Notes under the pieces: model-generated
What the model was told of the DNA's origin: nothing
Database searches by the model: none
What the model saw: only the letters and a program-made list of their open reading frames with translations
Part shown: positions 3,112 through 52,834 of the stretch, one piece after another
Position numbering within the stretch: the stretch's first letter is position 1
Layout of the letters: each line of letters opens with the position of its first letter
Position numbers and translations under genes: made by a program
Virus record (IMG/VR): IMGVR_UViG_3300035645_000269
Strand: one strand, 5' to 3'
Length of the DNA stretch: 64,000 nucleotides
Source: a virus

Positions 3112-3699
3112 ATGGGATTGAAGATAGACAGAAAGCAGGACAAACGTGTAGTACACGCTTGTACGCACATGCTGGCGGACATTCCTAACGGCGTTACCGT
3201 TTGCTCTTCCGAATTGGTTGCGGGCGGTATCTTGCAGGAAGGGACGGTATTAGGCGGCAAAGACGCTGCCGGGCTTTACCACGTAGTAAAGACCGCAAGG
3301 CTTACCGAAACCGCTACCGCCACTACAAAAGCCTACAAGGTGGCGAAAGGACATCATTTCAAAGTAGGCGATTTTATCATGTTGAAAGTAGGCGCAAAGG
3401 CTTACAAGATTACATCTATCAACACGTCAGAAACGCTTTACGACACCATCAACGTAGGCACTACTTTAGGAGAAACCGCCCCAGCAGGCGCAGCCCTTGT
3501 ACTTGCCGCCGCTGAAAGTGCGGACGCTACAAGCGCATTCAAGTACGTGCCTAAAGCCATGACGGGCGACAGCTACGACGTGGAAGCCCTTAACAACCAC
3601 TTTGTAACAGCGGTTACTATCGGGCAGTTCAAAGAGAGTGTTATCCCGGCAGTAAGCGACGACATTAAAGCCGCTTTACCCGGTATCAGTTTAATTTAA
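3112..3699 (+). CDS. capsid-associated protein (possible head decoration or protease-like)
   Basis: 195 aa Ala/Thr/Gly-rich ORF between the scaffold-like gene and the capsid gene. Function assigned by synteny only. Confidence 0.3.
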   Translation: MGLKIDRKQDKRVVHACTHMLADIPNGVTVCSSELVAGGILQEGTVLGGKDAAGLYHVVKTARLTETATATTKAYKVAKGHHFKVGDFIMLKVGAKAYKITSINTSETLYDTINVGTTLGETAPAGAALVLAAAESADATSAFKYVPKAMTGDSYDVEALNNHFVTAVTIGQFKESVIPAVSDDIKAALPGISLI

Positions 3700-7618: not shown

Positions 7619-7833
7619 AAAGCCCACACGGTCGCCGGGGGTCGGTTTGCGCGCACTTCGGCTGGACGTTGGATTACCTTCTACACGGGATTTCGTGGGG
7701 AACGGTTCAGAGAATGATAGTAGATGCACCGGGAGCAGAGGAAGAAGACACGAAACCGGGAACGACGGAAGTAGTGCTTACCGAAGAAAACGCGGGCGAA
7801 GTATTGGACTTAATAAATAAACTTAACCGATAA
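7441..7833 (+). other. open -1 frame overlapping the chaperone 3' end and ending at the tape measure ATG (candidate G/GT-type frameshift extension)
   Basis: I checked codon by codon: frame 1 has no stop from 7441 to the TAA at 7831-7833, which overlaps the tape measure ATG (TAATG). Confidence 0.4.
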
Positions 7834-10800: not shown

Positions 10801-12029
10801 TAAAGCTGACCGTAGAAGGCGAAGAACAGTTAGCCGTACTTAACGCCGCATTGTCAAAAGAAGAAGGCACGACGAAAAGCGTTTCAGCGGCTTTTAAAGA
10901 ATCCTTTAAAAGCATAGGAAGCAGCATAGACCTTGTTTCCGGGGCATTTGACAGCGTTGTAAGCGGAATAAAGAAAATGGGCGTTTCAATGGACGAAGAA
11001 ACGGACGCTATTTTAGGTGACATAGGCGGAATGCTTGAAGGCGCGGGACAGTTCGCCGCAGGTTACGCAAGCATGAACCCGGTACAAATGGTGTCCGGTG
11101 CGGTAGGCTTCCTTTCTTCCGCCTTCGACCTGTTCAACACCCGCGACCGGAAAGCCGAGAAGTCCATAAAGAAACACCAAGAAGCCGTAACAAAGTTAGG
11201 CTATGCCTATAACGCATTGGAACACGCCGTAGATAGTGCTTTGGGCGAAACCGTTTATCAGAACCAAAATGCCATGATACAGAATCTGCGTGCCCAGCAG
11301 AACGAGATACAAGGCATGATAAACGATGAAATCAGCAAGAAGAAAACCGATTGGGGCAGAGTGGACGAATTTAGGGAACAATACGCCGAAGCCGGAAGGC
11401 AGATAGAAGACCTCATAAAAGAGATTACCGAAAGCATTACGCAAACTTCGGCTACGGAATTGGCGGACGAATTGGCTAATGCACTGGTAGAAGCCTTTGA
11501 AGGTGGGGAAAACGCGGCTAAGGCATTCGGGGAAGTAGCAAACGACGTGATAAAAAACGCCGTCGTAAACGCCCTAAAATTGCAGTTCTTGGAACAGCCC
11601 TTACAGAAGGCTATAAAGCAGCTTCAAAAGGATATGGGGTTTGATGAAGAAGGGAACGGCTCTTTTAACGGATTGACGGAAACGGAGCAGGCGCGTTTCA
11701 AACAAGCCATACAAGCAGCCGGGGCGAACTTTGCCGCCGCTATGGATATGTACAAAGACCTATTTGAACAGTTGGACGAAGACGACCCCAGTACGTTAAG
11801 CGGCGCGATAAAAGGCGCAAGCCAAGAAAGTATAGACCTTTTGGCAGGACAAACAAACGCGGTACGAGTAAACCAAGTAACATCGCTCCAACTTTTACGG
11901 CAGCAGCTTACACACCTTGCGAACATGGACACCACGTTAGGCGTGATAAGCGGGCGGCTGCTTACCATAATAAACAAGATTACCAATACCCCTACGGATG
12001 ATTTACGTTCGCAGGGCATAACAGATTAA
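7833..12029 (+). CDS. tail tape measure protein
   Basis: 1398 aa, highly coiled-coil (Ala/Glu/Lys/Gln-rich) N half, hydrophobic central segment, follows the chaperone. The minus-strand ORFs inside are antisense shadows. Confidence 0.85.
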   Translation: MNIQGGGLSFEISGSNDKLLSVLNESKKAIQNFSTAAVSGGKGIDRAFENAAAAIEKGFADIDRIVDTNKASLAKLQEEYKRLSSEAAKAFSEARDADYRRYIEAAKNIQSEITLREKLINEAQASADQLLQEEKALKKQKETAEKNVSTQISLRTQLRNVREELALLEANGQRGTEAFKKLQQEAGRLTDAIGDATTQARIFSHDNRGLQGMISGLSGVVGAFSAAQGAVALFAGENEDLQKVMLKVQSLMSITIGLQQVANTINKDSAFMLTTVAKAKELLAAATNKLTIALGGSTIAAKALMATLTLGLSVAITVIIAALSKLQSKQAEAKKAQEEFNKKVSEAAGKPVAAYRALQTEWISLSGSLKEREKWVQDNADNFKELGFSVRDAKEAEELLVSNSSKFVEAMMLRAKAAATSELAIEKYKAVIEAQNKLDATPKAYVSKKGTYTDGYGVKRKGTVLEKSDTWKEAEEALTKAEAEYNKLINLQVSFTQQEKQILAQIGNQAGKIIAGSVEAAEKELARLQELYKKAGSDKERASLKKQIEAQQKEVNRISLSSGSKKEKDPYLEMLTKRKEKYADYLKWVTSKDETLRMAANTEFATLLKEGTSYLDYLENKRADIQAKATKTTTDLKNLSTLNNEIAKTTKETVISDFDKKLQEELAACQTIGARLDLLEQRRKELSGDNSDVDNAKKDIIDDAKKDTLQQAKEETKQLLREYAGYLSDKLDFEESYAWKKQAITDKLAKATTSKDKQVAEAALAALEKKRAEYSKLTGNEQYDQLLQQYKTYQQQQTEIMKTYAAQRVEAEKQGNIAMIAQINAKEQAELSKLAASRLMASESWNQLFSDLSTLTTNTINKLITDINSKKVSLSAQFNPADLKAINDQLEKAKDELHERNPFLALKDSLAELRAAMKADKLLESDDPFVKSLEERKKQYQAYTDTINSGDEILAGAAKEAFAELLSEGSSYVDYLRRKIAELNKQKATIKLTVEGEEQLAVLNAALSKEEGTTKSVSAAFKESFKSIGSSIDLVSGAFDSVVSGIKKMGVSMDEETDAILGDIGGMLEGAGQFAAGYASMNPVQMVSGAVGFLSSAFDLFNTRDRKAEKSIKKHQEAVTKLGYAYNALEHAVDSALGETVYQNQNAMIQNLRAQQNEIQGMINDEISKKKTDWGRVDEFREQYAEAGRQIEDLIKEITESITQTSATELADELANALVEAFEGGENAAKAFGEVANDVIKNAVVNALKLQFLEQPLQKAIKQLQKDMGFDEEGNGSFNGLTETEQARFKQAIQAAGANFAAAMDMYKDLFEQLDEDDPSTLSGAIKGASQESIDLLAGQTNAVRVNQVTSLQLLRQQLTHLANMDTTLGVISGRLLTIINKITNTPTDDLRSQGITD

Positions 12030-12547: not shown

Positions 12548-13765
12548 ATGGCATTAGAACAGAATTTAATTTTAGACTTACCTTTCGACGAAGCGAACGG
12601 TTCTACCGTTGCATACGACTTTGCACAGAACCGCCACGACGCGACCGTAGTAGATTGCAGTTTTGTAGCAGGCAAGCAGGGAAACTGCATAAATTTTGAC
12701 GGCGAAGGATATGCAGACGTAAACTATAACGTTGTGCCCCTATCCGGCAGTTTTACCATATTGGCATGGGTAAAAGCCAATAAATACCCGGACGGCTACA
12801 CGGGCAAAAGAATAGGATTGTTCTGTAACACCGACCAAGTGGATGGCTACCGCACCTTTTGGATAGACGTAGAACCGGATAGCTGGGGCTTCTTCGCTAT
12901 AAAGAAGTCCGGCAACCGAGTTTTGGTATATTTAGACACACAGTTAATAGAAACGATCGTATTGCCTTCCACGCTTACCGGGATAGCGTTAATACAAGAC
13001 ATTTACGGTATTGGTTACGGTTACGCCGATTTAGACAGCGTGAAAGTGTACAACGTCGTATTAAGCGACGCGGAAATAGGCGAAGAACTTAACTCCGTTG
13101 CGCAGCTTGAATATTATTTGGACGGTAAAAACTTCCGCGATTTTGGAATACGCGTAGAAAGTTCTACGGGCGTTCTTGACCTTCCCAAACTGAAAACCCC
13201 GGCTTCCGTTGATTGGGCGGACTATCACGGGAAAGTTATAGACCTTAGCGAAAAGCGATACCAAGAACGCGAAATAACGCTTAATTGTTGGCTAAAGGCT
13301 TCCGGTAAGATGGATTTCGTTGAACGGGTTAATACCTTGTACGACCGTTTCCGGCAGGACGGCACGCAGCGGCTTATGATTTCCATACACCCAACTAAAC
13401 CGCTTGTTTACGAGGTTTATTGCGAAGACGGGGTAGCCCCCTCCAAACGTTGGCACGATGATAAAATGATAGGTACTTTCTCCCTGAAGCTGAAAGAACC
13501 AGACCCGGTTAAGCGCGTCGTAAGACACCAGCGGTTAAACAGCGGTTCGGCTAAGGTAAGCGTGGCGTTCAAATCCGATAAAATGATTAATATTTATTGG
13601 GGTGACGGTACGGTAGATACCGACGTTTACGGGGATTGTACCGGAAAGAACGCCATTAGCCACACCTACACGGATAACGGAATTTATTACATAATTGTAG
13701 CCGGGGTAATTGAAGACATAACGGACTTTGAAACTAACGGTATTGTAGTATGGAACAGATTATAA
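12548..13765 (+). CDS. distal tail protein (Dit-like) with N-terminal lectin/LamG-like domain
   Basis: 405 aa, position after the tape measure gene. C part resembles the 172 aa ORF at 58173..58691. Confidence 0.4.
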   Translation: MALEQNLILDLPFDEANGSTVAYDFAQNRHDATVVDCSFVAGKQGNCINFDGEGYADVNYNVVPLSGSFTILAWVKANKYPDGYTGKRIGLFCNTDQVDGYRTFWIDVEPDSWGFFAIKKSGNRVLVYLDTQLIETIVLPSTLTGIALIQDIYGIGYGYADLDSVKVYNVVLSDAEIGEELNSVAQLEYYLDGKNFRDFGIRVESSTGVLDLPKLKTPASVDWADYHGKVIDLSEKRYQEREITLNCWLKASGKMDFVERVNTLYDRFRQDGTQRLMISIHPTKPLVYEVYCEDGVAPSKRWHDDKMIGTFSLKLKEPDPVKRVVRHQRLNSGSAKVSVAFKSDKMINIYWGDGTVDTDVYGDCTGKNAISHTYTDNGIYYIIVAGVIEDITDFETNGIVVWNRL

Positions 13766-16700
13766 TAAACCATGCCGACGGAAGCAAAACACCGTTATTC
13801 AGCAGGAAGAATATAAGCGCAATAAGCAAGGCGACACAAAAAATCGCCTTGCTTTCCGAGGACGTGGTAAGTATTACCATAACCACCGCTACGCCTTTGG
13901 ATTTGATGATAGGCGATACCACGCTGATATACGGCAAGAAGTACAAACTTAACCAGCTTCCGCAAATAACCAAGAACGGCGAAAGGAACTATACCTACGA
14001 ACTGACCTTAGAAGGGGCGCAATATGACCTTATAGATGTTCAGTACCATTTGCCCGAAGATTGCTACGGCGATACGTTCTACTCGGATTTGGGCGGGCAT
14101 TTGGACGTATTGATGTGGAACATAAGCCGCGTATATCCGGGGCTTTGGAAGCTGGGGAACTATCCCAAAGATACGGAGTACACAAACTTTACAGCCACCG
14201 AAAAGAATTGTTTGGCGGCATTGCAGGAACACTGTACCAACTACGGCGTAGAATTTGAGATAACCAGCGACGGGAAGACCAACACGCTCAACATAAAAGC
14301 CAAAGCGGGAATAACGCATACTTTCACGTTGAAGTACGGGCGCGGGCGTGGTCTGTACCAGCTTAGCCGTACCAACGTGAACAATGCCGGGATAACAAAC
14401 CGCCTTTTCATTTACGGCGGAACGGAGAATTTAGGCAAGAACTACGGGCATACAAAGCTATGCCTTCCCGGAACTACGCGCCTTACTTCCTATTTGGAAG
14501 ATGCGGAATCAATAGCCGCCTACGGGATAAAGGAAAACGAGAAGAACTATACCAACATCAAACCGGGACGTATAGGCACGGTTACGGCATTGGGTACGGA
14601 TAAGATTACCTTCATAGACAATACGATGTTTGACCTTAACGCGAAAGAAGCGGACGGGAAAACGACAAAATATTTGATAGAAGGAACAAACGCGAAGATT
14701 AAGTTTGAAAGCGGGCAACTTGCAGGCTACGAGTTTGACCTGCACAGCTACGAGCATGGAACGCATAAGTTTGTAATAAACAAGTTCCAAGACGAAAACG
14801 GTACGGTATTCCCTTCCGAAACTTCCGGCGCGTTTCAGATAAGCGTAGGCGACAAATACAGCATTTTAGATATTCAGTTACCGCAGGAATACATAACGGA
14901 AGCCGAAAAGGATTTGAAGGAAGCCGGGACAAAGGATTTTGAAACCATGACACAGCCGCAAGTAAGTTACAAACTTGCACTAACCGAAGGCTTCTTTATT
15001 TCGCTTTGGGGTAAAGAAGTGGAAACCGAAATACTGCACGTAGGCGATTTCATACCGATTGAGGACGAACAGATAGGCGTAAATAAGGCGGTAAGGATTA
15101 CTCGCATAGAGCGCGATCTGCTAAAACGGCATAGCTACGACATAACGTTAAGTGACACCGTAACGAAAAGCACTACCGTACGCGTTCTAAACGAAATAGA
15201 GGACTTGAACGAAGTTATTACCATAAACAAGCTGGCAGACCCCGCAAGGGCGCGCCGCCGTTGGCTGGCTACGCAGGAACTTCTAAACATGGTATTCGAC
15301 CCCGAAGGCGACTATTACAGCGAGAAGATAAAGCCGCTTTCCATTGAAACGCAGATGTTAAGCGTTGGGGCTAAAAGCACACAGTTCACACTGCAAAACA
15401 TTACGTTCCAGCCGAACTATGGCGGCAACCCTAATAGCCTTTACGTTTCTTCCGGTACATTGGTTCATTACGCGATAGAACCGGACGCATTGAAGTTGTG
15501 GGGGCTTTCTTCGGCAACATTTACTAACCTAACATCCGCTACGGCGTATTACATCTACGCAAAATGTCCTAAAAACGGGGATAGTGGAACTATTATACTA
15601 TCCGCTACGGCTAAGACGGTAGAAGCGGAAGCGGGCTATTACAATTTCCTTGTAGGGGTTCTTAATTCGGTTGTTACAGATACGAACGGGAAGAACCCCG
15701 GTAGGCTTGTTTCATTGACTTACGGGAGCAGTACCATAAACGGGCGTTTCATCCGTACCGGAAGGATAGAGAGCAGCGGTGGCGGTAAATGCTACTTCGA
15801 CCTCGACAACGACGAAATAGGCGGCGTTATTCACTTTGTAAGCAGCGACGGAACGACAAAGAACGTTTCAGACCTCGACCAGATAGCGAACGAAACAAAG
15901 AACTACATAAATAATACCCTGCCTGGTATTCTGAACGAAATACAAGCGCAATTAGACGGGCAAATAGAGCAGTTCTTTGAAACATACGACCCGACGCTGA
16001 CAAACGCGCCCGCGAAGGATTGGAACACAACCGCGCTGAAAGATGAACATTTAGGCGACCTTTTCTATAACACTTCAACGGGTAAAGTTTTCCGTTTCGT
16101 AAAAAACGGTTCTACTTACAGTTGGCAGGAACTACAAGACAGCGAAGTAGCGCAAGCGTTGGCACTTGCTAACGACGCGTTAAAACTTGCCGGGACAAAA
16201 CGGCGTATTTTCGTGGCACAACCTACAACGCCTTACGACGTGGGCGATTTATGGGTACAAGGCAGTACGGGCGACATCATGCGATGCAAGACCGCCCGCA
16301 CTTCCGGTTCTTATAATTCCGTAGATTGGGTAAAGGCTTCCAAATATACGGACGACACCGGGCTAACCAACTTTATAAACAACAACTTCACGCCAACCGT
16401 AAACGACCTTACAACACAGATAGACGGCAAGATAGAAAGCTGGTTCCAATCTTCCGACCCGGCGGCTAATTGGACGACTACGGCACTAAAGAAGGCGCAC
16501 GTAGGCGATATGTGGTACAGTTCATCAACAAAGTTGTTGAAACGCTATACCGTTTCCGGTTCTACATATTCATGGACTACGATAGAAGACCAAAAGGCGA
16601 TAGACGCATACACGGCAGCAAGCAAGGCACAGGACACAGCGGACGGGAAAAGGCAGGTATTTGTAACCCAGCCAAAACCACCGTATGACATAGGCGACCT

Positions 16701-17775
16701 TTGGCTGACGGGTGGAAAAACAGACGGAATACTAAAACGTTGCATAACTAAACGTACTTCCGGTTCTTACGTCGCTAACGATTGGGTGGAAGCCGTTTAT
16801 TACGATAACACCCAAACCACGATAGACGGTGGCATAGTAACAGCCGGAACGGTTCAGCTTGCAGGTAGCGACGCGAGTATAAAAGCAGGAATAACAGGGG
16901 AAGGCACAGCCGACACAAGCGTAAGGTTTTGGGCTGGAGCAAGCAAGGGAAACCGGGCTACCGCACCTTTCCGCGTACTGCAAGACGGTAGCTTTGTAGC
17001 TACGAAAGGAACTATAACGGGAACAATCAACGCAAACGCCGGAAGTATTGGCGGCTTTGCGATAGCAAGCGGACGAATAGGTGTAGCGGCTTCATCCGGC
17101 GACACAAGCGGAAGCGGTTTAGCATTGCTTAGCAGTTTTATAAAGTTCTCGGACTCTTACCGCTGGGCTTCCATTGGAACGAACGTATTACCAGCTTCTA
17201 CCGGGTTGGTCGGCGTTGGACGTTTTACCAACAAGACACCAAACAGCTATGGAACTAACTACGGGCTACTTATTGAAGCGTCCGGCGCGCTGGTTAATTT
17301 GGGTATAGTGAGCAAAGGCGCGATAGTTTGCGACAGCTACGTAGCGGATTACGGTATATCAAAACTTTTGCCTTCCGTAAATACCTGCCTTACACCGGGC
17401 GACGCTACCAAGCCTACGCTATTCAAGTTAATGCCGCGCTTCATTTACAGTAATAGCGGCATAGGGCTACCTCGCCGCGACTCCATTTGTACGGTGTTAG
17501 GCATTAGTAATTATACAGCCTTTGCCGTAAGGATTACTATTATTTGTGATAGAACGAGCACGCAGACCGGGTATGTTTGCGGGCGTAATACATTCGTAAA
17601 GAACAGTTCCGGCGGCAACGCTATGGATAGCAACTACTACCCGTACCGTATGAACAACAACGCAGGAAACGAAACCGGAAAGTGGAACATGGCGGCGGGC
17701 GACATACGCGAGTTTCTTTTAGTTTGGGACGGAAGCAGCGGATATTACGCCTATTTATTGAACATAAGAGAATAA
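13750..17775 (+). CDS. tail tip / receptor-binding protein (Tal-like) with internal tandem domain duplication
   Basis: 1341 aa. KYGRGRGLYQLSRT matches KYGRGNGLYEIQRT in 55298..58195. Two ~140 aa repeats (NWTTTALK...GSTYSW...PYDxGDLW...RTSGSY). Confidence 0.55.
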   Translation: MEQIIINHADGSKTPLFSRKNISAISKATQKIALLSEDVVSITITTATPLDLMIGDTTLIYGKKYKLNQLPQITKNGERNYTYELTLEGAQYDLIDVQYHLPEDCYGDTFYSDLGGHLDVLMWNISRVYPGLWKLGNYPKDTEYTNFTATEKNCLAALQEHCTNYGVEFEITSDGKTNTLNIKAKAGITHTFTLKYGRGRGLYQLSRTNVNNAGITNRLFIYGGTENLGKNYGHTKLCLPGTTRLTSYLEDAESIAAYGIKENEKNYTNIKPGRIGTVTALGTDKITFIDNTMFDLNAKEADGKTTKYLIEGTNAKIKFESGQLAGYEFDLHSYEHGTHKFVINKFQDENGTVFPSETSGAFQISVGDKYSILDIQLPQEYITEAEKDLKEAGTKDFETMTQPQVSYKLALTEGFFISLWGKEVETEILHVGDFIPIEDEQIGVNKAVRITRIERDLLKRHSYDITLSDTVTKSTTVRVLNEIEDLNEVITINKLADPARARRRWLATQELLNMVFDPEGDYYSEKIKPLSIETQMLSVGAKSTQFTLQNITFQPNYGGNPNSLYVSSGTLVHYAIEPDALKLWGLSSATFTNLTSATAYYIYAKCPKNGDSGTIILSATAKTVEAEAGYYNFLVGVLNSVVTDTNGKNPGRLVSLTYGSSTINGRFIRTGRIESSGGGKCYFDLDNDEIGGVIHFVSSDGTTKNVSDLDQIANETKNYINNTLPGILNEIQAQLDGQIEQFFETYDPTLTNAPAKDWNTTALKDEHLGDLFYNTSTGKVFRFVKNGSTYSWQELQDSEVAQALALANDALKLAGTKRRIFVAQPTTPYDVGDLWVQGSTGDIMRCKTARTSGSYNSVDWVKASKYTDDTGLTNFINNNFTPTVNDLTTQIDGKIESWFQSSDPAANWTTTALKKAHVGDMWYSSSTKLLKRYTVSGSTYSWTTIEDQKAIDAYTAASKAQDTADGKRQVFVTQPKPPYDIGDLWLTGGKTDGILKRCITKRTSGSYVANDWVEAVYYDNTQTTIDGGIVTAGTVQLAGSDASIKAGITGEGTADTSVRFWAGASKGNRATAPFRVLQDGSFVATKGTITGTINANAGSIGGFAIASGRIGVAASSGDTSGSGLALLSSFIKFSDSYRWASIGTNVLPASTGLVGVGRFTNKTPNSYGTNYGLLIEASGALVNLGIVSKGAIVCDSYVADYGISKLLPSVNTCLTPGDATKPTLFKLMPRFIYSNSGIGLPRRDSICTVLGISNYTAFAVRITIICDRTSTQTGYVCGRNTFVKNSSGGNAMDSNYYPYRMNNNAGNETGKWNMAAGDIREFLLVWDGSSGYYAYLLNIRE

Positions 17776-18114
17776 GCCATGCATCACGGCGCAAGGCATT
17801 AAATAGAAGTGTTGTAACGCCGAATTTCACGGCTTCGGCTAAACAAACACTTCACGAGTATTTCACGACGTATTAAACTAATACGATAAGAAAGTATTTT
17901 TGTAACGACTTAAAATTAAGTGTATGGAAAATAGAAACGGCGATTTAGTGAGCGCGCAAATTTCGGTAGCCGGGAACGTGGATTTTTCCGGTGGCAACTT
18001 CCGAATGGACACGCCTTTTTGCTTAAAAAACGATGGCGAAGCGGCGATAGTATTGGAAGTAAACCTTTGGGGAATGCCCGAAGGCGAATTTATAAGCACG
18101 CGCTTTGAAACGGG

Positions 18115-19530
18115 ATGGAACCCCGAAATTATCAGAGAGATAAAAGAAACGAGTTCAGCAACCGCCCTGATTTGGGGCTATTAAAAATTATAACTATGGG
18201 TTTAATTATTGCGGCGGGCAACACAAAGCCCGCGTTTCCTTATGATTACTATTACGGCGTAAAGATTAATATAAACGTGGCAGATACCGCGTTAGAACGC
18301 GTAGGAAGATCGGAACTACATGTTTCGCTCCCGGTTCAATCCCTTATGCGCCGTTGTTTGCTTAACGATGCCGGGCAGGTTGTTACCTACCTTCATCAAA
18401 CCGACAGTACGAAGACGGACACCGGGGCAGCGGCAGACCTTACCGGAGCTTCCGGCATGGTAATGGTAGAAATACCGAAGCACTACCGTAAGTTTGAATT
18501 TGACGGTACTACGTTTACCTGCCTTATATCACAATACCAACTACCGGGCTTTATCGAAGTGCCGAAGATGTACCGGAGCGCATACGAAGCCACGATAGAC
18601 AGAACTTTATCAGCTACGCCCAAACTTGCCAGCGTGGTAAATACTACGGCTGCTTTCCGGGGCGGAAACAATAATACGGCATGGGACGGAACTTATAGAA
18701 CCCTCTTAGGTCGTCCAGCTACACAAACGAGCCTTACCAACTTCCGAAAATACGCACGTAACAGAGGTGCAGCCGGATTGAACAGCGCAGGATGGAACTG
18801 CGATTTATACGCGGCACAAAACGCGACCTATTGGCTTTACGTGATTGAATACGCTAACCTTAACTGCCAGCTTGATTTTAACGCGCAACCTACGAGCGAA
18901 GGGTACAAGCAAGGCGGGTTAGGCGCAGGCGTTACGACGCTTAACAGTACAAAGTGGAACACCTTCAACAGCTACTATCCGTTTGTGCCATGCGGTACTA
19001 CCAATTCATTGGGTAACGCTTCGGGTGTGGTAGAATACACCATGCCGGACGAATACGACACGGGCGTAGTTACCAAAGTAAAAGTACCTTCATACCGAGG
19101 AATAGAAAACCCGTTCGGGCATGTTTGGAGTTGGACGGACGGATGCAAATGCGCCATTGAATCAGACGCGGACGGCGGCATCAGTTCTTTCTATACTTGC
19201 GATAACCCGGCGAACTACCAAGATACAAACTATGACAATTACGTAAAACGTGGCGAACTTCCACGCAAGGAAGGTTATGTTAAGCGCATGATGATAGGCG
19301 AATACGGGGAAAATATGCCTACGGAAGTGGGCGTAGGTTCTACTACCTACTTTGCCGACTACTTCTATACCAACATACCAGCCAGTGGCGTAGCGCAAAG
19401 GGGTGTCTTGTTCGGCGGTGATGCGGATAACGGCGCGGGTGCCGGGCTTTCGTGCGCGTATACGGCTAACGCGGCTTCGTATGCGGGTGCGAATGTCGGC
19501 TCTCGGCTTTGCTTTATCCCCGCCGCGTAA
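18115..19530 (+). CDS. DGR-1 target protein with C-terminal variable region
   Basis: The last ~110 nt (VR1) match TR1 except at TR adenines. Likely true start at the ATG near 18196 (MGLIIAAG) after the 17924..18184 ORF. Confidence 0.75.
   Translation: MEPRNYQRDKRNEFSNRPDLGLLKIITMGLIIAAGNTKPAFPYDYYYGVKININVADTALERVGRSELHVSLPVQSLMRRCLLNDAGQVVTYLHQTDSTKTDTGAAADLTGASGMVMVEIPKHYRKFEFDGTTFTCLISQYQLPGFIEVPKMYRSAYEATIDRTLSATPKLASVVNTTAAFRGGNNNTAWDGTYRTLLGRPATQTSLTNFRKYARNRGAAGLNSAGWNCDLYAAQNATYWLYVIEYANLNCQLDFNAQPTSEGYKQGGLGAGVTTLNSTKWNTFNSYYPFVPCGTTNSLGNASGVVEYTMPDEYDTGVVTKVKVPSYRGIENPFGHVWSWTDGCKCAIESDADGGISSFYTCDNPANYQDTNYDNYVKRGELPRKEGYVKRMMIGEYGENMPTEVGVGSTTYFADYFYTNIPASGVAQRGVLFGGDADNGAGAGLSCAYTANAASYAGANVGSRLCFIPAA
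19401..19512 (+). repeat. DGR-1 variable repeat (VR1)
   Basis: gggtgtcttgttcggcggtGatgcgGataacGgcgcgGGtgcc... versus TR1 ...ggtAatgcgAataacAgcgcgAAtgcc... Every mismatch I could find sits at a TR adenine. Confidence 0.8.
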
Positions 19531-19573
19531 TACGTTACGAAACGAAATGTTTAATAATTAAAAATACAAGAAA

Positions 19574-19918
19574 ATGACTTCAAACAATAATAGCACAGAT
19601 GACGGTAGCCTTTCGTTCTTGAACATCCAGCCGGACGAAGCGAACAAACATTTCAACTGCCCGGAAACCACCCAGCAGAAACTAATCAATTTGCAGTTTT
19701 GGTTAATTGATTTTATCGAAGACGTGAAAACGAAATTCGGTGCGAACCGTTTCCTCGTGAAAATAAAGTTCAAGAAGGACGACCCCGAAAGCGAAGCAAA
19801 GAAGTTCTTCACAAATTCCAGCGAAATAAAATACATTTTGCAGGAAATAAAGAAGCGTAACGCCTTCCCGCGAAAGGTAACTATGCGGGCTTCGGGAACG
19901 CGCTATTATTTTGAGTAG
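19574..19918 (+). CDS. DGR accessory protein (Avd-like, by position)
   Basis: 114 aa ORF between the target gene and TR1. Assigned by synteny only. Confidence 0.35.
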   Translation: MTSNNNSTDDGSLSFLNIQPDEANKHFNCPETTQQKLINLQFWLIDFIEDVKTKFGANRFLVKIKFKKDDPESEAKKFFTNSSEIKYILQEIKKRNAFPRKVTMRASGTRYYFE

Positions 19919-19945
19919 GAAGATTTTCACGGTTGTTTGCCCTTC

Positions 19946-20057
19946 GGGTGTCTTGTTCGGCGGTAATGCGAATAACAGCGCGAATGCCGGGCTTTCGTAC
20001 GCGAATACGAATAACACGGCTACGAATACGAATGCGAATATCGGCTCTCAGCTATAC
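19946..20057 (+). repeat. DGR-1 template repeat (TR1)
   Basis: Adenine-rich (AAT/AAC codons) copy of VR1, non-coding, between the Avd-like ORF and the reverse transcriptase. Confidence 0.8.
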
Positions 20058-20175
20058 TGATTTTTTTGTAAAGCTAATAAGGACAAAGACCGCGCCGGAA
20101 GGCGGAAAATATTAACCATTAACGGGGTTTGGTAGGGAAACCGAAGAACACCATTTAATCAGCAAAGAAATTACT

Positions 20176-21210
20176 ATGAAAAGGTTAGGCAACCTTTACG
20201 ACAAAATAATAAGTTTGGATAATTTGCACCTTGCGGACGAACGCGCCCGCAAGGGCAAACTACATTCCTACGGCGTAAAGTTACACGACCGCAACAAGGA
20301 AGCCAACCTTTTGTCTTTGCACGAAGCACTGAAAGCAGGAACTTACAGAACTTCGGAATATAGTACCTTTACGATATACGAGCCTAAAGAACGCGAGATT
20401 TTCCGTTTGCCATACTTTCCCGACCGGATTGTACATCACGCCGTAATGAACATTTTAGAGCCTATATGGGTGTCTATTTTCACGGCGGACACTTATAGCT
20501 GCATCAAAGGGCGTGGCATACAAGCGGCGGCAAATAAGTTAAGGCACGTTATCGACAGAGATAAGGCAGGCTGCGCGTATTGCTTGAAAATAGACATACG
20601 CAAATTTTACCCTTCCATAGACCACACCGTACTAAAATCCATTGTTCGCCGGAAGATTAAGGACACACGGCTACTCAACCTTTTGGACGAAATTATAGAC
20701 AGTGCGGAAGGCTTACCGATTGGCAACTACCTTAGCCAATATTTAGCAAATCTTGTACTTACCTACTTCGACCATTGGGTAAAGGAAGTAAAGCGGGTAA
20801 GGTACTATTTCAGATACGCCGACGACATTGTAGTATTACATAGCGACAAAAAGACGCTTCACGCTTTGCTGGCAGAGTTTGAAAGCTATTTGGCGGCTAA
20901 CGTAAAGCTGGAAATCAAACAGAACAAACAAGTCTTTCCGGTGGCACGCGACCACCGCGACAGCTTCGGGCGTGGTATTGATTTCTTGGGCTATGTATTC
21001 TATTTGAACGAAACACGGCTTAGGAAGCGTATCAAACAGAACCTTTGCCGTAAGATAGCTAAATTACGGAAACGGAAGAAACCGTTAAGTGAGGATGAAT
21101 TTAAGCAGACGTTAGCCGCGTGGTGGGGTTGGGCTAAATACAGCGACAGCGAATATTTAATTAACAAGTTAAACAAAATTACACCTTATGAAATCAAGTT
21201 CAGACGTTAG
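20176..21210 (+). CDS. DGR reverse transcriptase
   Basis: 344 aa with RT motifs: FPDRIVHHAV, SCIKGRG, YADDIVVL (YxDD) and thumb region GIDFLGYVF. Confidence 0.9.
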   Translation: MKRLGNLYDKIISLDNLHLADERARKGKLHSYGVKLHDRNKEANLLSLHEALKAGTYRTSEYSTFTIYEPKEREIFRLPYFPDRIVHHAVMNILEPIWVSIFTADTYSCIKGRGIQAAANKLRHVIDRDKAGCAYCLKIDIRKFYPSIDHTVLKSIVRRKIKDTRLLNLLDEIIDSAEGLPIGNYLSQYLANLVLTYFDHWVKEVKRVRYYFRYADDIVVLHSDKKTLHALLAEFESYLAANVKLEIKQNKQVFPVARDHRDSFGRGIDFLGYVFYLNETRLRKRIKQNLCRKIAKLRKRKKPLSEDEFKQTLAAWWGWAKYSDSEYLINKLNKITPYEIKFRR

Positions 21211-21560
21211 ACCCGCGATTATTTTACCGTTGGGTAATGGTTCTTACCACTATAACTACAACATAGTGGAAGAAAAGGTAGAAGACCCGGAAACGGGCGA
21301 AAAGACCGTTTACAACTACGATACGGTACAGGTTTGGCAGAAGCCGGACTACGAAAACCTTACACGTGCGGTTATCCGTAGCGAAATAGACGAAACCGAA
21401 GAATTTTCTTTGATTAACGACTATTACGCCGCACAGTTGGGTATAGAAACGGACGAAGACCGCAAAGCGAAAGCAGTAGCGGACTATAAAGCACACCTTA
21501 GCAGGGTTATTGCTATCAAAACTATGGTAAAGAACGATTTATTAACGGAAGGTTACTAAT

Positions 21561-23375: not shown

Positions 23376-23828
23376 ACTTCCTTATTATAAGTGTTATACG
23401 CGGTGCGTACGGGACTAACACATTTTGCTATTATACTGATAATCAATAAAATACTTATTAAAAATATATTAATGGTATCATATTTATATCATCTCCGCTT
23501 ATTTTCTTCTATAATTTTATGCAGTGCTTCTATCTGCATCATCGCACCTTCATAAGCTGCTTTGTAGTTGACATTCGCATCAATATCCGTCTCAATCATA
23601 TTCCCTTTGCCAGTACAAAGCCACTTCACATTCAATTCCGGGAACTTATCCACAATACGAGCTATTATATCAGTTCCAATAGCCCCCTTCCCGTTCCTTA
23701 TGGAATTATAAATGTATCTATTTGATAATTCACAATAAGCCTCAAACGAGTTCTCACCTTTGACAACTCCCTTATCACGTGCATACCTTGCAAATTTTCG
23801 TAATCTGTCAATAGCCCTTTCTTCCATA

Positions 23829-24599
23829 TCAAATAATCTTTTGACTTATTATGCGTAATGCTTGCCACATCCCCCTTATTTCTCTTCTCTCGACATCTAA
23901 CTGGCCATGCTTGGGGTTATCAGCCTTTAAAGTCAGCACATTATCCAAGAAAAGACTGTTTTTCAATATCCGCTTGACTGAAAGTGTTTTCCCATACACA
24001 ATACTCACAACTCCTGACGCGCTTTCCCACAAACCTTCTTCTATTTTGCGAGCAAGAATTTTAGCTCCGTCCGGTATAGTTGGCTCCATGCTGTCACCAC
24101 GTACTTGAAAGACCATATAAGAATCATCAAGCACTTCACCTTCTTCCGGCATGACACCATAAGAATCAATTTCATAAGCTGTGTTATATAAGCTTTCGAC
24201 AAATGAAGCCGCAGCATCTATCGGAACATATTTTACTTTTACAAGAATATCTTGAAGATAAGGAGCTACTTTACTAATCGTAGAGTCTGATTGCATTCTC
24301 GCATTTTTCAGAGCATCCCTAATATCCTTCTCCGAAGGTTCTATCTGTCCTGATGGAGTCTTTGCAAACAAACCTTCTCCAGTATATAGCCATGCTCTGC
24401 TCACATCATACTTCTCACAAAAAGCATCAATTGTTTTTTTACTTGGTAACTGAATCCCTTTTTTTATACTGGTAAGAGTTGATTCACTGGATATAATATT
24501 GTCTTTCTTCAATTTATACCCACTCAAACCACAATATGAAATTGCTTGCAAAAACCTTTTTGAGAGATCACTCAATTTTTTATCGTCAACTTCTTGCAT
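23829..24599 (-). CDS. CI/LexA-like repressor (HTH plus S24 peptidase domain)
   Basis: VRGDSMEPTIPDGAKIL (S24 Ser motif) and downstream GKTLSVKRIL (Lys). Divergent from the early operon. Confidence 0.7.
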   Translation of the reverse strand: MQEVDDKKLSDLSKRFLQAISYCGLSGYKLKKDNIISSESTLTSIKKGIQLPSKKTIDAFCEKYDVSRAWLYTGEGLFAKTPSGQIEPSEKDIRDALKNARMQSDSTISKVAPYLQDILVKVKYVPIDAAASFVESLYNTAYEIDSYGVMPEEGEVLDDSYMVFQVRGDSMEPTIPDGAKILARKIEEGLWESASGVVSIVYGKTLSVKRILKNSLFLDNVLTLKADNPKHGQLDVERREIRGMWQALRIISQKII

Positions 24600-32408: not shown

Positions 32409-33155
32409 TATGCTGACATTTCAACAAAGAAGAGATACGATATTGTCTCAATTTGCACAAGCAAAAGCCGATTTGGAAACACTTAATAGTGATATTGATG
32501 CAGAAATCGAAAAGAATAAATCTGTTATTTCTACACTAACTTCTAAAAATACAGAATTGGCCTCTTTAAAAAGTAATAATGAAGGCTCAATCAAGACTTT
32601 TGCTAAATTCCTAAAATAATAATTATCAACCCGATTAATAATCAGCTTCTCCCGGTGTGGCTTGACCGCCTATCCGGGAACTATCATGCCTCACCTTTTT
32701 TCTTCTCTTTGCAAGTCGAGTCGAGTACGCTGCATACGCTCCACGGCGGTAGATACTACAAAGAGTCTTTTTGTTCATGTAAAATGCCTCTATTGTAGAG
32801 GCAAACGGATAAGTGGCGAAATCGGAAGACGCTTAGTTTCTGTGGTAAAAATGCACGAATAGCATCACGAGTCAGGTAATATGCTATTAACACTTGACAT
32901 ACGTACAAACGGAAGCAGAAACGAAAATCCTGATTGCAACAGTTCCCGGTTCGAGTCCGGGCTTATCCACATAAATCAATCATTATGAAAGTTGAAATCC
33001 CCGACTATTTCCTAAAATCCTTTATCCGACATTTTGAAAGGATAACCGAGAATTGTAAAGCTTCACCTTCTGACATCAAGACCAGTGAAGCACTAAGGCT
33101 TGGAAAGAAAGATGTAATTAAGCTCAAAAGATTTATAAACAAAAAAGTATAATTT

Positions 33156-50998: not shown

Positions 50999-51283
50999 TG
51001 CTGCTTTGTTTTAAAATTTACACCATACTTCCAATTTTGTCTTGTTCAGACTATTTTAATTATTCCGATAACTGCAAGCTGTTTTTACTTGCTTGAATAA
51101 TTCGCCCGGAGCTTTCGAGAACCAACCTACTAACACCGCTTGTTGCCTTTCGCAAATTGGGCAACCTTTCCGCATTCTTGATTTTCTGACATCGTAACCA
51201 ATTGATTACTACGTTGCAACGATATAAATCCTGCAAGGTCATGGCTCGGAGAACTCGCAGATTACTCTACGATAAATAAGTAT

Positions 51284-51391
51284 GGCGAGAGCCGATATTC
51301 GCATTCGAGTTCGACCAATCGTTATTCGAGTTCGCATAAGCGAGGCCGCAATTCGCACCGTTATTCGCATTACCGCCCCAAAGAACCAGCT
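51284..51391 (-). repeat. DGR-2 template repeat (TR2)
   Basis: Minus strand reads agctggttctttggggcggtaatgcgaataacggtgcgaattgcggcctcgcttatgcgaactcgaataacgattggtcgaactcgaatgcgaatatcggctctcgcc. About 75-80% identical to TR1 and adenine-rich. Confidence 0.75.
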
Positions 51392-51514
51392 CTTGTTCCC
51401 CTCTGCCAACCGTCCACGCCTTTCGGCTTTCGTCCCGTTATCCGTTGCCGTAAAACGAGAAGGTGGACGGGTTTTAATTAATTGAAATTCAAAGAACTAA
51501 TATTTCAAAATCTA

Positions 51515-52834
51515 TTATGCAGCCATCAAAGATGCACCGCTAACAAATGTTAAATTCCCAAAATACGCAAGGCGAGAGCCGATACCCGCATACGAGAGCG
51601 ACCAATCGTTAGACGAGGTCGCACAAGCGAGGCCGCAATTCGCACCGTCATACGCAAGACCGCCCCAAAGAACCAGCTGCCCAGTAGTGTTTGCCCATGA
51701 ATAATCAGCCCAATAAGAAGTGCTGTTTCCACCAATCTTTTTCGGGAAAATATCAAAATGCTCCCCAAGAATTATTTCCTGCACTTGACCGGAAGCTGTC
51801 TGACGGGTAGCTTGTCTGTATTCACCATTTGGATGCGCAGCTAATTCAGCAGTAGTCGGTAAACGGTTTCCTTTGTAAATGAAAATTTCCGTTCCACTTT
51901 GAGCACTATTGTTGGAACTACCGCAAAATACTCCTTGCAGAAATTCCCACTGCCACCCATAAGGATCTTCTATACCCATCATGTTCACCCGTGAACAATC
52001 CACTCCAGTATTACTTCCATTCACCACAGAAATAGCTATTTTGCCCCAATTGTCACCGAGACTCTTTGTTGCGCCAGTTTGCAATGCTGCCGCAGCAGCC
52101 CACAAGTCTTTACTGGAGCTACCACCCACACCATAACCAAGTTTGGCTTGAATATTGGTATCTCCGTACTGGGACAGCCCCAACATCATAATAAGCTTTC
52201 TCTGATCGTAATCGGTCAGTCCCCATTCCTTACCGTTCACTTGTGCAGCATTCCAAAATGCGTTGATTGTCTTGCTGCCTGCCGGTGCAACTCCTGAACG
52301 TGAAACAAGTGCGCTACCTGACATGGAGCCTTTGTATGCACCGATACAGTTATACATTCCACCATTTGCCCCACCAATAAACTCACCGCCAATAGGTAGC
52401 ATCGAGAGCCATAAGACTGGTACACCACTCACACTGTCAGTCTGTACACGATAATACAAACGTGGCCCTATCCACATCACATGCCCTTTGGTTTCATCCA
52501 CCGCAGTACCATCAGCAAACACCGCACTATTGGTAGGGGACATTTTAGCAGCCCTTCCATCATTCGTTACGAGATAACGGCCACAATACAACTTGTATTC
52601 TGTCCATGCGGCTGTATTACCTATCACACCATAGTTCGTGCTACTTTGGGTTGATTGTTTGATTGGAATCCCCCAAGCCACCTGCCTCAACATTTGTTCG
52701 TCACCATTATTAATAGCATTCATGAAGTTTTCCACGGTAATGCGTCTGACACTACCACCAACTTCCACCAATACTGTATTGGAACGCAGAATGGAGGTCA
52801 CCAATGTTTCATTTCCTAATCCTTTAGTTGCCAT
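51515..52834 (-). CDS. DGR-2 target protein with C-terminal VR
   Basis: 439 aa. C-terminus ...QLVLWGGLAYDGANCGLACATSSNDWSLSYAGIGSRLAY is encoded by VR3. Confidence 0.7.
   Translation of the reverse strand: MATKGLGNETLVTSILRSNTVLVEVGGSVRRITVENFMNAINNGDEQMLRQVAWGIPIKQSTQSSTNYGVIGNTAAWTEYKLYCGRYLVTNDGRAAKMSPTNSAVFADGTAVDETKGHVMWIGPRLYYRVQTDSVSGVPVLWLSMLPIGGEFIGGANGGMYNCIGAYKGSMSGSALVSRSGVAPAGSKTINAFWNAAQVNGKEWGLTDYDQRKLIMMLGLSQYGDTNIQAKLGYGVGGSSSKDLWAAAAALQTGATKSLGDNWGKIAISVVNGSNTGVDCSRVNMMGIEDPYGWQWEFLQGVFCGSSNNSAQSGTEIFIYKGNRLPTTAELAAHPNGEYRQATRQTASGQVQEIILGEHFDIFPKKIGGNSTSYWADYSWANTTGQLVLWGGLAYDGANCGLACATSSNDWSLSYAGIGSRLAYFGNLTFVSGASLMAA
51560..51667 (-). repeat. DGR-2 variable repeat (VR3)
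   Basis: Identical to TR2 over about 108 nt except about 12 positions, all at TR2 adenines (aat to ctt, gaataac to gtatgac, ttatgcgaactcgaataac to ttgtgcgacctcgtctaac, and so on). Confidence 0.8.

What the first reader, a model, noticed from the sequence alone, without database searches (positions are those of the whole stretch)
18115..21210. Complete DGR-1: target, Avd-like ORF, TR and reverse transcriptase with adenine-only TR/VR differences
Aligning about 112 nt at the 3' end of the 471-aa tail-module gene (19401-19512) with the non-coding repeat at 19946-20057 shows identity except where the template has A. About 20 such A to N changes appear, for example ggtAatgcgAataacAgcgcgAAtgcc versus ggtGatgcgGataacGgcgcgGGtgcc. 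This is the hallmark of mutagenic retrohoming. The reverse transcriptase carries YADDIVVL. The target sits right after the Tal-like tail tip genes, so it is a likely receptor-binding specificity determinant of this phage.
Basis: partly seen in the sequence, partly recalled or inferred. Interest (0 to 1): 0.8.

Follow-up and report, generated by a model that had tools for sequence, protein, structure and literature searches.

The report
Active phage DGR with non-Avd accessory
This is a genuine, complete diversity-generating retroelement in a Bacteroides prophage that rewrites the tip of a tail protein at adenine-coded positions; it is an ordinary member of a known kind, except that its small helper gene is not Avd but a free-standing copy of a domain that related phages carry fused to the end of their reverse transcriptase.

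Summary
VR 19401-19513 and TR 19946-20058 align without gaps. All 19 mismatches fall on TR adenines (P about 3e-14).

Seventeen independent contigs carry the same TR, and each has a different VR. Only 26 adenines (TR positions 20-95) vary. Four further sites are fixed differences, three of them in an IMH-like end.

The RT (20176-21210) is DGR-type. Its best solved relative is Bordetella bRT (E 1.6e-42), and it has IGNYLSQ and YADDIVVL. The TR is bracketed by a strongly covarying long-range RNA duplex (19936-19944 with 20079-20087). The TR-RT spacer matches Rfam RT-17.

Three details need correcting:
- The target gene starts at 18196 (444 aa, not 471).
- Three of the "A-to-N changes" are fixed, not mutagenic.
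- The "Avd-like ORF" (19574-19918) is not Avd. It has no Avd sequence match and a predicted beta-barrel-plus-helix (OB-like) fold. It is homologous to the C-terminal extension of Hankyphage-type DGR RTs.

Verdict: a new member of a known kind, common in gut metagenomes. The most interesting residue is the uncharacterised accessory domain.

The parts
18196..19530 (+). DGR target gene (444 aa tail protein). The longest ORF begins at 18115, but all homologues start at 18196.
19401..19513 (+). Variable repeat (VR). The mutable part is 19420-19495. 19496-19513 is an invariant IMH-like end (TCGGCTCTCGGCTTTGCT).
   Evidence: 19 of 19 mismatches to the TR fall on TR adenines. 17 loci with the same TR have 17 different VRs. 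The end sequence is conserved across the whole family.
19574..19918 (+). Accessory gene (114 aa, pI 9.2). It is not Avd. It is a free-standing homologue of the C-terminal extension of Hankyphage-type DGR RTs, with a predicted OB-like small beta-barrel.
19936..19944 (+). 5' strand of a long-range RNA duplex just upstream of the TR (UUUGCCCUU). It pairs with 20079-20087.
   Evidence: 90.8% of cells paired across 23 distinct sequences. 8 of 9 pairs show compensatory changes. 0 of 500 shuffles reach the observed value, and slid controls give 44-64%. The window copy has one C.A mismatch.
19946..20058 (+). Template repeat (TR), non-coding. It has 30 A. The adenines at positions 20-95 (19965-20040) are the mutagenic ones. 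20041-20058 is the IMH*-like end (TCGGCTCTCAGCTATACT).
   Evidence: The TR is identical in 4 of 5 metagenome loci and in 5 genome contigs while the VRs differ. All mutable A sit at codon positions 1/2, and there are 10 AAY codons.
20057..20062 (+). CUGAUU at the 3' end of the TR. It is the proposed template strand of a template:primer duplex with spacer AAUCAG (20157-20162).
   Evidence: 75.8% of cells paired against 15-42% in slid controls. Covariation is modest (e.g. CUUUUC/GAAAAG in L052). This is an inference by analogy to BPP-1.
20059..20175 (+). Spacer (Sp) RNA between TR and RT. It contains the 3' strand of the bracketing duplex (20079-20087), GACC, hairpin P1 (20093-20104), the UGGUAG...CGAA stem region, and the invariant AAUCAGCAAAG (20157-20167).
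   Evidence: Rfam RT-17 (RF03020) scores 32.2 bits at 20088-20169, below the gathering score of 40.4. 8 of 20 related loci pass the gathering score at the same place. P1 covaries UA<->CG and GC<->AU.
20176..21210 (+). DGR reverse transcriptase (344 aa)
   Evidence: RVT_1 at 1e-19 and phrog_1423 at 1.6e-127. The best PDB sequence hit is the 328-aa RT chain 8ub7_A at E 1.6e-42 over the full length, far ahead of group II intron RTs at 9e-19. By length and sequence I take that chain to be Bordetella bRT. It has IGNYLSQ, which fits the DGR signature [I/V/L]GxxxSQ, an Arg aligned to bRT R74, and YADD.

Best explanation
DGR-1 is a functional diversity-generating retroelement at the right end of a roughly 50-kb temperate Bacteroides siphovirus-type prophage. 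That prophage's right end lies at window 23416.

An RNA running from at least 19936 to about 20170 carries the TR. A covarying long-range duplex (19936-19944 with 20079-20087) brackets the TR, and a structured spacer of the RT-17 type follows it.

The RT (20176-21210) probably acts together with the 114-aa basic OB-like protein (19574-19918). It would copy the TR into cDNA, most likely cis-primed from the spacer near AAUCAG/CAAAG, which pairs with the CUGAUU at the TR end. It misincorporates opposite adenines.

The cDNA then replaces the VR (19401-19513) at the 3' end of the tail-protein gene. The 3' boundary of transfer lies in the A-free TCGGCTCTC element. As a result 26-27 adenine-coded positions in about 17 codons are randomised (about 1.8e16 DNA and 9e15 protein variants), while the scaffold stays constant. 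The varied surface most likely sits on a C-type-lectin/FGE-like receptor-binding domain and changes host or receptor specificity.

Shown here:
- the repeat anatomy and the adenine specificity;
- the RT type;
- natural VR diversity with an invariant TR;
- the RNA covariation;
- the recurrent fusion of the accessory domain to RTs.

Inferred:
- the priming site;
- the transfer boundary;
- that the accessory protein is an RT cofactor;
- the target fold and its receptor-binding role.
For: Repeat and adenine specificity:
- 19 of 19 mismatches fall on TR A (P 3e-14), and all mutable A sit at codon positions 1/2.
- Across 80 related cassettes, 1202 of 1232 VR/TR mismatches are on TR A.

Activity in nature:
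- 17 loci with the same TR have 17 unique VRs that vary only at A sites 20-95.
- In L002 the target gene body matches at 1202/1205 positions and the TR at 113/113, yet the VR differs from the window's at 15 of 113 positions.
- 90%-identity protein clusters hold 5148 and 11593 distinct members.

RT type:
- The best PDB hit is the 328-aa RT chain 8ub7_A (taken to be Bordetella bRT), E 1.6e-42.
- IGNYLSQ fits the DGR signature, and the residues equivalent to R74 and I181 are conserved.

RNA:
- The bracketing duplex is 90.8% paired, with 8 of 9 pairs compensatory and 0 of 500 shuffles as high.
- RT-17 matches the spacer in the window and in relatives.
- The TR-end:Sp duplex is 76% paired.
- This parallels the BPP-1 cPRT-Stop and template:primer duplexes.

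Accessory:
- It lies between VR and TR in the related loci examined.
- It is homologous to the Hankyphage RT C-terminus.
- It is fused to RVT_1 in five long representatives and structurally matches viral RT proteins.
- The Hankyphage DGR, whose RT carries this domain, is experimentally active.

Target:
- Tail module context.
- The C-terminus is homologous to the DGR-2 target and to crAss-like DGR targets.
Against: - There are no population reads from this sample, so ongoing mutagenesis in this particular copy is not shown.
- The window copy, and its near-identical relative L002, have a C.A mismatch in the middle of the bracketing duplex.
- The window's spacer scores below the RT-17 gathering threshold (32.2 against 40.4 bits).
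- No conserved GC-rich hairpin follows the VR as it does in BPP-1.
- The target model is of low confidence (pLDDT 55.5), and no sequence method detects a CLec/FGE domain.
- crAss-like DGRs with related RT and target show no detectable copy of the accessory domain, so it may not be strictly required.
- The proposed priming duplex has only modest covariation and was derived from the window sequence.
Confidence: 0.9

Rival explanations
1. The cassette is a DGR relic. The VR/TR pattern records past retrohoming, but this copy no longer diversifies.
For: The bracketing RNA duplex has a C.A mismatch in this copy. The spacer scores below the RT-17 threshold. Only one consensus VR is available for this sample.
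Against: All ORFs are intact. The TR is identical to that of 9 other loci whose VRs all differ. The near-identical L002 shares the same mismatch yet has a VR that differs at 15 positions from the window's. That implies turnover since the two diverged at about 0.2% elsewhere.
Confidence: 0.07
2. The 114-aa ORF is a highly divergent true Avd (a pentameric four-helix-bundle barrel) that sequence methods miss.
For: It has the same position as avd in BPP-1 (between target and TR), a similar size (114 against 128 aa), and a basic pI of 9.2. Avd sequences are known to be poorly conserved.
Against: No member of the family hits an Avd or four-helix-bundle family at E<=10, and there is no PDB sequence hit. 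The AF2 model, with core pLDDT about 90, is five strands plus one helix rather than a helical bundle. Structural neighbours are OB-fold SSBs and viral RT C-terminal domains. The domain occurs fused to the RT C-terminus.
Confidence: 0.04
3. The 114-aa ORF is a phage gene unrelated to the DGR that merely sits between VR and TR. The RT works alone, as in the accessory-less 'Architecture A' DGRs.
For: 29% of catalogued DGRs lack accessory genes. crAss-like DGRs with 57%-identical RTs and 43-47%-identical targets show no detectable homologue.
Against: The domain is repeatedly fused to RTs, in Hankyphage, in DGR-2 of this window and in 5 long representatives. Its position between VR and TR is kept in the related loci examined across 67-100% identity. 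It is more conserved than the target (70% identity or more in the top 120 hits).
Confidence: 0.2
4. The VR/TR similarity is an ordinary duplication or gene-conversion tract with biased mutation, not retrohoming.
For: None beyond the existence of a direct repeat.
Against: All 19 mismatches fall on one base of one copy (P 3e-14). The asymmetry holds in 80 loci. A DGR-type RT sits 118 nt downstream. The TR is invariant while the VR is hypervariable.
Confidence: 0.01

Closest known systems
Bordetella phage BPP-1 DGR (mtd-avd-TR-brt)
   Same: - Same gene order: target(VR)-accessory-TR-spacer-RT.
- Adenine-specific VR/TR differences, with AAY-rich TR codons.
- The RT is the closest solved relative (8ub7_A, E 1.6e-42) and shares the [I/V/L]GxxxSQ signature.
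- An upstream-of-TR:spacer duplex and a TR-end:spacer duplex resemble the cPRT-Stop and template:primer duplexes.
- The target is a tail protein.
   Different: - The accessory protein is not Avd in sequence or in predicted fold.
- The spacer belongs to motif RT-17, not RT-10.
- There is no conserved GC-rich hairpin after the VR.
- The upstream duplex strand lies in the intergenic 27 nt, not inside the accessory ORF.
- The target has no detectable Mtd sequence similarity.
Hankyphage (Bacteroides phage p00, BK010646) DGR
   Same: - Bacteroides temperate phage, with the DGR near the right genome end.
- Integration at varied sites.
- RT 34% identical over residues 1-323.
- The accessory protein is 33% identical to RT residues 326-433.
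- The target C-terminus is weakly homologous.
- DGR activity has been shown experimentally for Hankyphage.
   Different: - Here the C-terminal domain is a separate gene placed upstream of the TR rather than fused to the RT.
- The target is a 444-aa protein rather than a protein of more than 2200 aa.
- There is no nucleotide similarity.
crAss-like phage DGRs (e.g. cr55_1, cr111_1, cr115_1) and Bacteroides phage Versailles
   Same: These have the closest annotated RTs (up to 57% identity) and targets (43-47% identity, annotated as tail protein).
   Different: No homologue of the 114-aa accessory domain is detectable in those genomes by tblastn. The virion type and genome are different.
Rfam RT-17 RNA motif (RF03020; Weinberg et al. 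2017, PMC5737381)
   Same: It lies between TR and RT with the same conserved blocks (GACC-hairpin-AAAA, UGGUAG...CGAA, AGCA). 8 of 20 related loci pass the gathering score.
   Different: The window copy scores 32.2 bits, below the gathering score of 40.4. The Rfam model does not include the long-range duplex with the segment upstream of the TR that is found here.
Thermus aquaticus variable protein TaqVP (5vf4) and other CLec/FGE-fold DGR targets (TvpA 2y3c, Mtd 1yu0)
   Different: The model has a pLDDT of only 55.5. No Pfam or PDB sequence match was found. The N-terminal two thirds are unrelated.

Membership tests
Diversity-generating retroelement (DGR) | TR/VR repeat pair whose differences fall at TR adenines | tested here: met
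   19 of 19 mismatches on TR A, P 3e-14. 1202 of 1232 across 80 related loci.
Diversity-generating retroelement (DGR) | RT of the DGR clade with the [I/V/L]GxxxSQ motif and YxDD | tested here: met
   IGNYLSQ and YADD are present. The best PDB hit is the 328-aa RT chain 8ub7_A (taken to be Bordetella bRT), E 1.6e-42, against 9e-19 for group II intron RTs. The motif definition comes from PMC7826257. No RT phylogeny was built.
Diversity-generating retroelement (DGR) | VR at the 3' end of a protein-coding target; TR non-coding and next to the RT | tested here: met
   The VR ends 17 nt before the target stop codon. The TR lies 118 nt upstream of the RT start and has an in-frame stop.
Diversity-generating retroelement (DGR) | TR adenines placed to give non-synonymous, stop-free variation (AAY codons) | tested here: met
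   27 of 27 mutable A sit at codon positions 1/2. There are 10 AAY codons and no stop is reachable.
Diversity-generating retroelement (DGR) | IMH / IMH* asymmetry at the 3' ends of VR and TR | tested here: inconclusive
   Three end differences (TR 20050, 20054, 20056) are identical in all 17 VRs and are conserved family-wide. An A-free TCGGCTCTC element separates the variable and fixed parts. This is consistent with IMH/IMH*, but function was not tested. No BPP-1-like hairpin is present.
Diversity-generating retroelement (DGR) | Evidence of activity: invariant TR with diversified VR among close relatives | tested here: met
   17 unique VRs across 17 loci with the same TR. The flanks are 92-99.9% identical.
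Diversity-generating retroelement (DGR) | Adenine-mutagenic cDNA synthesis and retrohoming demonstrated | not testable with these tools
   This needs biochemistry or amplicon sequencing.
Diversity-generating retroelement (DGR) | Target VR displayed on a C-type lectin / FGE-like fold | tested here: inconclusive
Avd (accessory variability determinant; four-helix-bundle pentamer) | Sequence membership in the Avd / four-helix-bundle families | tested here: not met
   None of the 42 family members hits such a family in Pfam at E<=10. NCBIfam gives no hit. A PDB profile search gives no Avd hit.
Avd (accessory variability determinant; four-helix-bundle pentamer) | Helical-bundle fold | tested here: not met
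   The AF2 model (pLDDT 81, core about 90) has strands at 41-53, 56-65, 76-80, 100-107 and 110-113, and a single helix at 83-94.
Avd (accessory variability determinant; four-helix-bundle pentamer) | Small basic protein encoded between target and TR | tested here: met
   114 aa, pI 9.2, encoded at 19574-19918 between the VR and the TR. This is a resemblance in role, not membership.
Hankyphage-type RT C-terminal extension domain (unnamed; phrog_19665) | Sequence homology to the ~108-aa extension after the RT thumb | tested here: met
   33% identity, E 1e-12, to Hankyphage RT residues 326-433. phrog_19665 at E 5.5e-34. The domain lies at the C-terminus of five RVT_1 proteins. The top three BFVD structural hits are RT proteins.
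OB-fold single-strand nucleic-acid-binding proteins | Five-stranded barrel with a helix between strands 3 and 4 | tested here: inconclusive
OB-fold single-strand nucleic-acid-binding proteins | Binds ssDNA or RNA | not testable with these tools
   This needs EMSA or a structural experiment.
Rfam RT-17 (RF03020) | Score at or above the gathering threshold (40.4 bits) | tested here: not met
   The window scores 32.2 bits (E 8e-5 in a local search) at 20088-20169. 8 of 20 related loci pass, at 41-52 bits, in the homologous position. The window copy is therefore a divergent relative.

The most novel reading that the evidence does not exclude
The 114-aa protein would define a previously uncharacterised class of DGR accessory factor. 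It would be an OB-like nucleic-acid-binding domain that takes the place of Avd as the RT's obligatory partner in a large clade of Bacteroidota phage DGRs. It exists either fused to the RT C-terminus (Hankyphage, and DGR-2 of this window) or as a separate gene upstream of the TR (this cassette). It would work with an RT-17-type spacer RNA and a TR-bracketing duplex. If so, DGR ribonucleoproteins come in at least two architecturally different forms that converge on the same cis-primed, adenine-mutagenic mechanism.
Probability: 0.45. Interest if true: 0.6.

Novelty: new member of a known kind. Interest (0 to 1): 0.38.

Why it matters
As a DGR this is ordinary. Phage tail-protein DGRs are abundant in the gut, and this cassette family has hundreds of copies in public viromes.

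It still has some value in three ways.

1. It is a clean, compact example that is demonstrably active in nature. It sits in a Bacteroides prophage that also occurs in a cultured strain (B. faecichinchillae JCM 17102).

2. It shows that the unexplained 'C-terminal extension' noted on about 20% of DGR RTs can exist as an independent gene. That is Rosetta-stone evidence that the domain is a functional DGR component. It gives a tractable two-protein system for asking what replaces Avd.

3. It ties the orphan Rfam motif RT-17 to a DGR spacer. It also extends the BPP-1 'cPRT-Stop' type of duplex to a distant, Avd-less DGR, with strong covariation.

Tried and rejected
- **Close relatives among deposited phages.** Megablast of the cassette and of the 21-kb phage arm against 50,697 phage records found nothing.
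- **Target fold by sequence.** Pfam at E<=10 and a PDB profile search for the target found nothing. The CLec fold could therefore only be approached through a poor AF2 model (pLDDT 55.5).
- **AFDB comparison.** Foldseek against afdb50 was unavailable.
- **Hairpin after the VR.** I looked for a BPP-1-style hairpin or cruciform downstream of the VR. The only candidate (CGTAA-TACG-TTACG, about 19526-19539) is no more stable than shuffled sequence (z 0.03). It is broken in close relatives, so I rejected it.
- **Folding the whole RNA.** A single-sequence MFE fold of the full TR-spacer RNA was uninformative (z -0.43). It also conflicted with the covarying hairpin P1.
- **RNAalifold on the spacer.** On the MAFFT spacer alignment it recovered only P1. 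The second RT-17 stem could not be scored reliably, because the alignment there is poor.
- **Cross-talk between the two DGRs.** I considered whether DGR-1 could serve DGR-2's repeats. The remote VR at 37570 matches TR2, not TR1, and the DGR-2 spacer has no RT-17 motif, so I rejected this.
- **One large phage with two DGRs.** I rejected this because similarity to five independent contigs stops at exactly 23416, with different flanks beyond.


Full report
**1. The observation**

Window 19401-19513 is the last 113 nt before the final six codons of the tail-module ORF. It aligns with 19946-20058 without gaps at an offset of 545 nt.

There are 19 mismatches. All lie at adenines of the downstream, non-coding copy: 14 A>G, 4 A>T and 1 A>C. 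That copy has 30 A in 113 nt, so the probability that all 19 fall on A is 3.2e-14.

Read in the target's frame, all 27 adenines in TR positions 1-95 sit at codon position 1 or 2. Ten codons are AAY, and no substitution at these sites can create a stop codon. The theoretical repertoire is 1.8e16 DNA and about 9e15 protein variants. The 18-mer at the start of the repeat occurs only at these two places in the window.

**2. Is it an active DGR?**

I fetched the same cassette from independent assemblies. Three routes were used: exact-protein look-ups, an IMG/VR scan with the accessory-protein alignment, and a genome scan with a 55-nt TR pattern.

- Among 17 loci with the same (or nearly the same) TR, all 17 VRs are different.
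- The variation is confined to 26 adenine sites at TR positions 20-95, plus four stray non-A changes.
- In locus L002 the target gene body is 1202/1205 identical to the window, the VR-TR interval 431/432 and the TR 113/113. Yet the two VRs differ at 15 of 113 positions.
- Across 80 cassettes of the wider family (accessory 67-100% identical), 1202 of 1232 VR/TR mismatches lie on TR adenines.
- The target's 90%-identity clusters contain 5148 and 11593 distinct sequences. That is what a hypervariable tip produces.

This is strong comparative evidence for ongoing mutagenic retrohoming. No population data exist for this particular copy.

**3. Corrections to the anatomy**

- Four TR adenines never vary among the VRs. 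Window 19977 is always G in the VR. 20050, 20054 and 20056 are always G, T and G.
- The last three lie beyond an A-free TCGGCTCTC element, and the same VR-end and TR-end sequences are conserved across the whole family.
- I read this as an IMH/IMH*-like end, with the 3' boundary of information transfer inside TCGGCTCTC. That is an inference.
- The target almost certainly starts at 18196 (444 aa). Every homologue begins MGLIIAAG, and every gene call is 444 aa. The 471-aa reading overlaps the upstream 86-aa gene.

**4. The reverse transcriptase**

ORF 20176-21210 hits RVT_1 (1e-19) and phrog_1423. Its best match among solved structures is the 328-aa RT chain 8ub7_A, over the full length at E 1.6e-42. 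By length and sequence I take that chain to be the Bordetella phage DGR enzyme bRT. Group II intron RTs reach only 9e-19.

It carries IGNYLSQ, which fits the DGR signature [I/V/L]GxxxSQ. It also has an Arg aligned with bRT R74. These are the two positions shown to promote adenine mutagenesis (PMC7826257). YADD is present.

**5. The RNA**

The 117-nt TR-RT spacer matches Rfam RT-17 (32.2 bits; gathering score 40.4). Eight of 20 related loci pass the gathering score at the homologous site. Weinberg et al. described the RT motifs as lying next to RT genes and tied RT-10 to the BPP-1 DGR (PMC5737381). RT-17 can now be tied to this DGR family.

Hairpin P1 (20093-20104) covaries.

More telling is the 9 nt just upstream of the TR (19936-19944), which pairs with the 9 nt just 5' of the RT-17 motif (20079-20087):
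- In 23 distinct sequences, 90.8% of cells pair.
- 8 of 9 pairs show compensatory changes.
- No shuffle of 500 reaches the observed covariation.
- Slid controls give 44-64% paired.

This is the same arrangement as the avd:Sp 'cPRT-Stop' duplex of BPP-1 (bioRxiv 10.1101/2023.10.23.563531).

A second, weaker duplex joins CUGAUU at the TR end (20057-20062) to AAUCAG (20157-20162), immediately before the invariant CAAAG. It is 76% paired against 15-42% in slid controls, with a few compensatory changes. I propose it as the template:primer duplex. This step is an inference. Both duplex alignments are concatenations anchored on motifs, and the second was derived from the window sequence.

No conserved hairpin follows the VR.

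**6. The 'Avd-like' ORF**

The 114-aa protein (19574-19918, pI 9.2) has no Pfam, NCBIfam or PDB sequence match. This holds for 42 family members scanned at E<=10. It belongs to phrog_19665, of unknown function.

tblastn against phages finds it only in Hankyphages, inside the annotated RT gene. The 434-aa Hankyphage RT aligns with RT-1 over residues 1-323 and with the accessory protein over residues 326-433 (33% identity, E 1e-12).

A profile search of 1.8 billion representatives finds 199 relatives. Most are free-standing proteins of about 100-150 aa. Five are proteins of 430-583 aa with the domain at the C-terminus, and all five carry RVT_1.

So the protein is not Avd. It is a split-off version of the RT C-terminal extension that Wu et al. 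noted on about 20% of DGR RTs without assigning a function (PMC5758913). The fused form works in an experimentally active DGR (PMC12135933).

I infer that it is the RT's nucleic-acid-binding partner, with a probability of about 0.6. I found no paper describing it. The related crAss-like DGRs lack a detectable copy, which is the main argument against it being indispensable.

**7. Target and context**

Upstream lie a tape-measure gene (7833-12029), a Dit-like gene (12548-13765) and a 1341-aa Tal-like gene (13750-17775) with a sub-threshold Prophage_tail match. An 86-aa gene and the target follow. Downstream come holin-like, GH108 endolysin and 234-aa genes.

The target is phrog_5302 'tail protein'. 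It is 43-47% identical to crAss-like DGR targets. Its C-terminal 180 residues are 30% identical to the DGR-2 target of this window.

**8. The element that carries it**

Similarity between the window and five independent contigs stops at exactly 23416, with different flanks beyond: his genes in one contig and a SusD-like gene in another. The prophage therefore ends there and integrates at varied sites.

Contigs of about 50 kb, and an isolate genome (Bacteroides faecichinchillae JCM 17102), carry the same TR. No deposited phage is close at the nucleotide level.

**9. Verdict**

This is a real, complete and naturally active DGR: a new member of a known kind, and common in gut data. The one point a specialist might want to follow is the non-Avd accessory domain and its RNA partner.

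Noticed in passing
window 49455-52834 (- strand), plus 37570-37682 (+ strand): There is a second DGR. Its target is ORF 52834..51515 (439 aa), with VR2a at 51678..51561 and TR2 at 51391..51274. A remote second VR (37570-37682) lies on the opposite strand, 13.6 kb away, at the 3' end of a 194-aa ORF (37179-37763). 15 of 16 mismatches (VR2a) and 16 of 16 within the repeat (VR2b) are on TR2 adenines. No ORF lies between the target and TR2.
   Followed up: partly
window 50875-49461 (- strand): The DGR-2 reverse transcriptase is split over three reading frames (about 50875-50300, 50301-50035 and 50000-49827). A homologue of the DGR-1 accessory domain follows, fused at its C-terminus (49757-49461, 24% identity). 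This means either two frameshifts (pseudogene or assembly error) or recoding. The DGR-2 spacer has no RT-17 match.
   Followed up: partly
window 23416/23417: Similarity to five independent contigs carrying the DGR-1 prophage ends at exactly 23416, with unrelated flanks in each. In this window the neighbour is a second prophage-like region that starts with divergent repressor-like genes (23489-24599, - strand). Two DGR-bearing elements therefore abut.
   Followed up: partly
window 19977 (TR) / 19432 (VR): This TR adenine lies in the middle of the mutable tract (AGC, Ser). It is G (GGC, Gly) in all 17 VRs examined, and the Gly is nearly invariant in the protein family. Either selection for Gly is very strong or the site escapes randomisation.
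   Followed up: no
L028 (about 3452-3500) and L003 (6373-6405): Some related loci have a 'TR' that carries VR-like substitutions. The L028 TR has only 15 A instead of 27. The L003 TR has 4 changes at its 5' end that resemble its own VR. These may be assembly chimeras between the two repeats, or cDNA homing into the TR itself.
   Followed up: no
window 19940 with 20083: The window copy, and the near-identical L002, have a C.A mismatch in the centre of the otherwise well-conserved TR-bracketing duplex. Close relatives have U-A at this position.
   Followed up: no
window 17924-18184 and 21188-21559: Two small conserved genes of unknown function flank the cassette in every related locus. An 86-aa gene (phrog_26422) lies directly upstream of the target. 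A 123-aa gene (phrog_11557) overlaps the RT stop by 23 nt. Whether either belongs to the DGR is unknown.
   Followed up: no
window 32807-32969 (+): There is a marginal Rfam tRNA match (29.5 bits against a gathering score of 29) spanning 163 nt. ARAGORN finds no tRNA anywhere in the window.
   Followed up: no
protein P0278 (257 aa): In this representative the accessory domain is at the N-terminus (residues 23-111), followed by a fragment of RVT_1. It may be a read-through of accessory-TR-RT, a different fusion order, or a gene-calling artefact.
   Followed up: no
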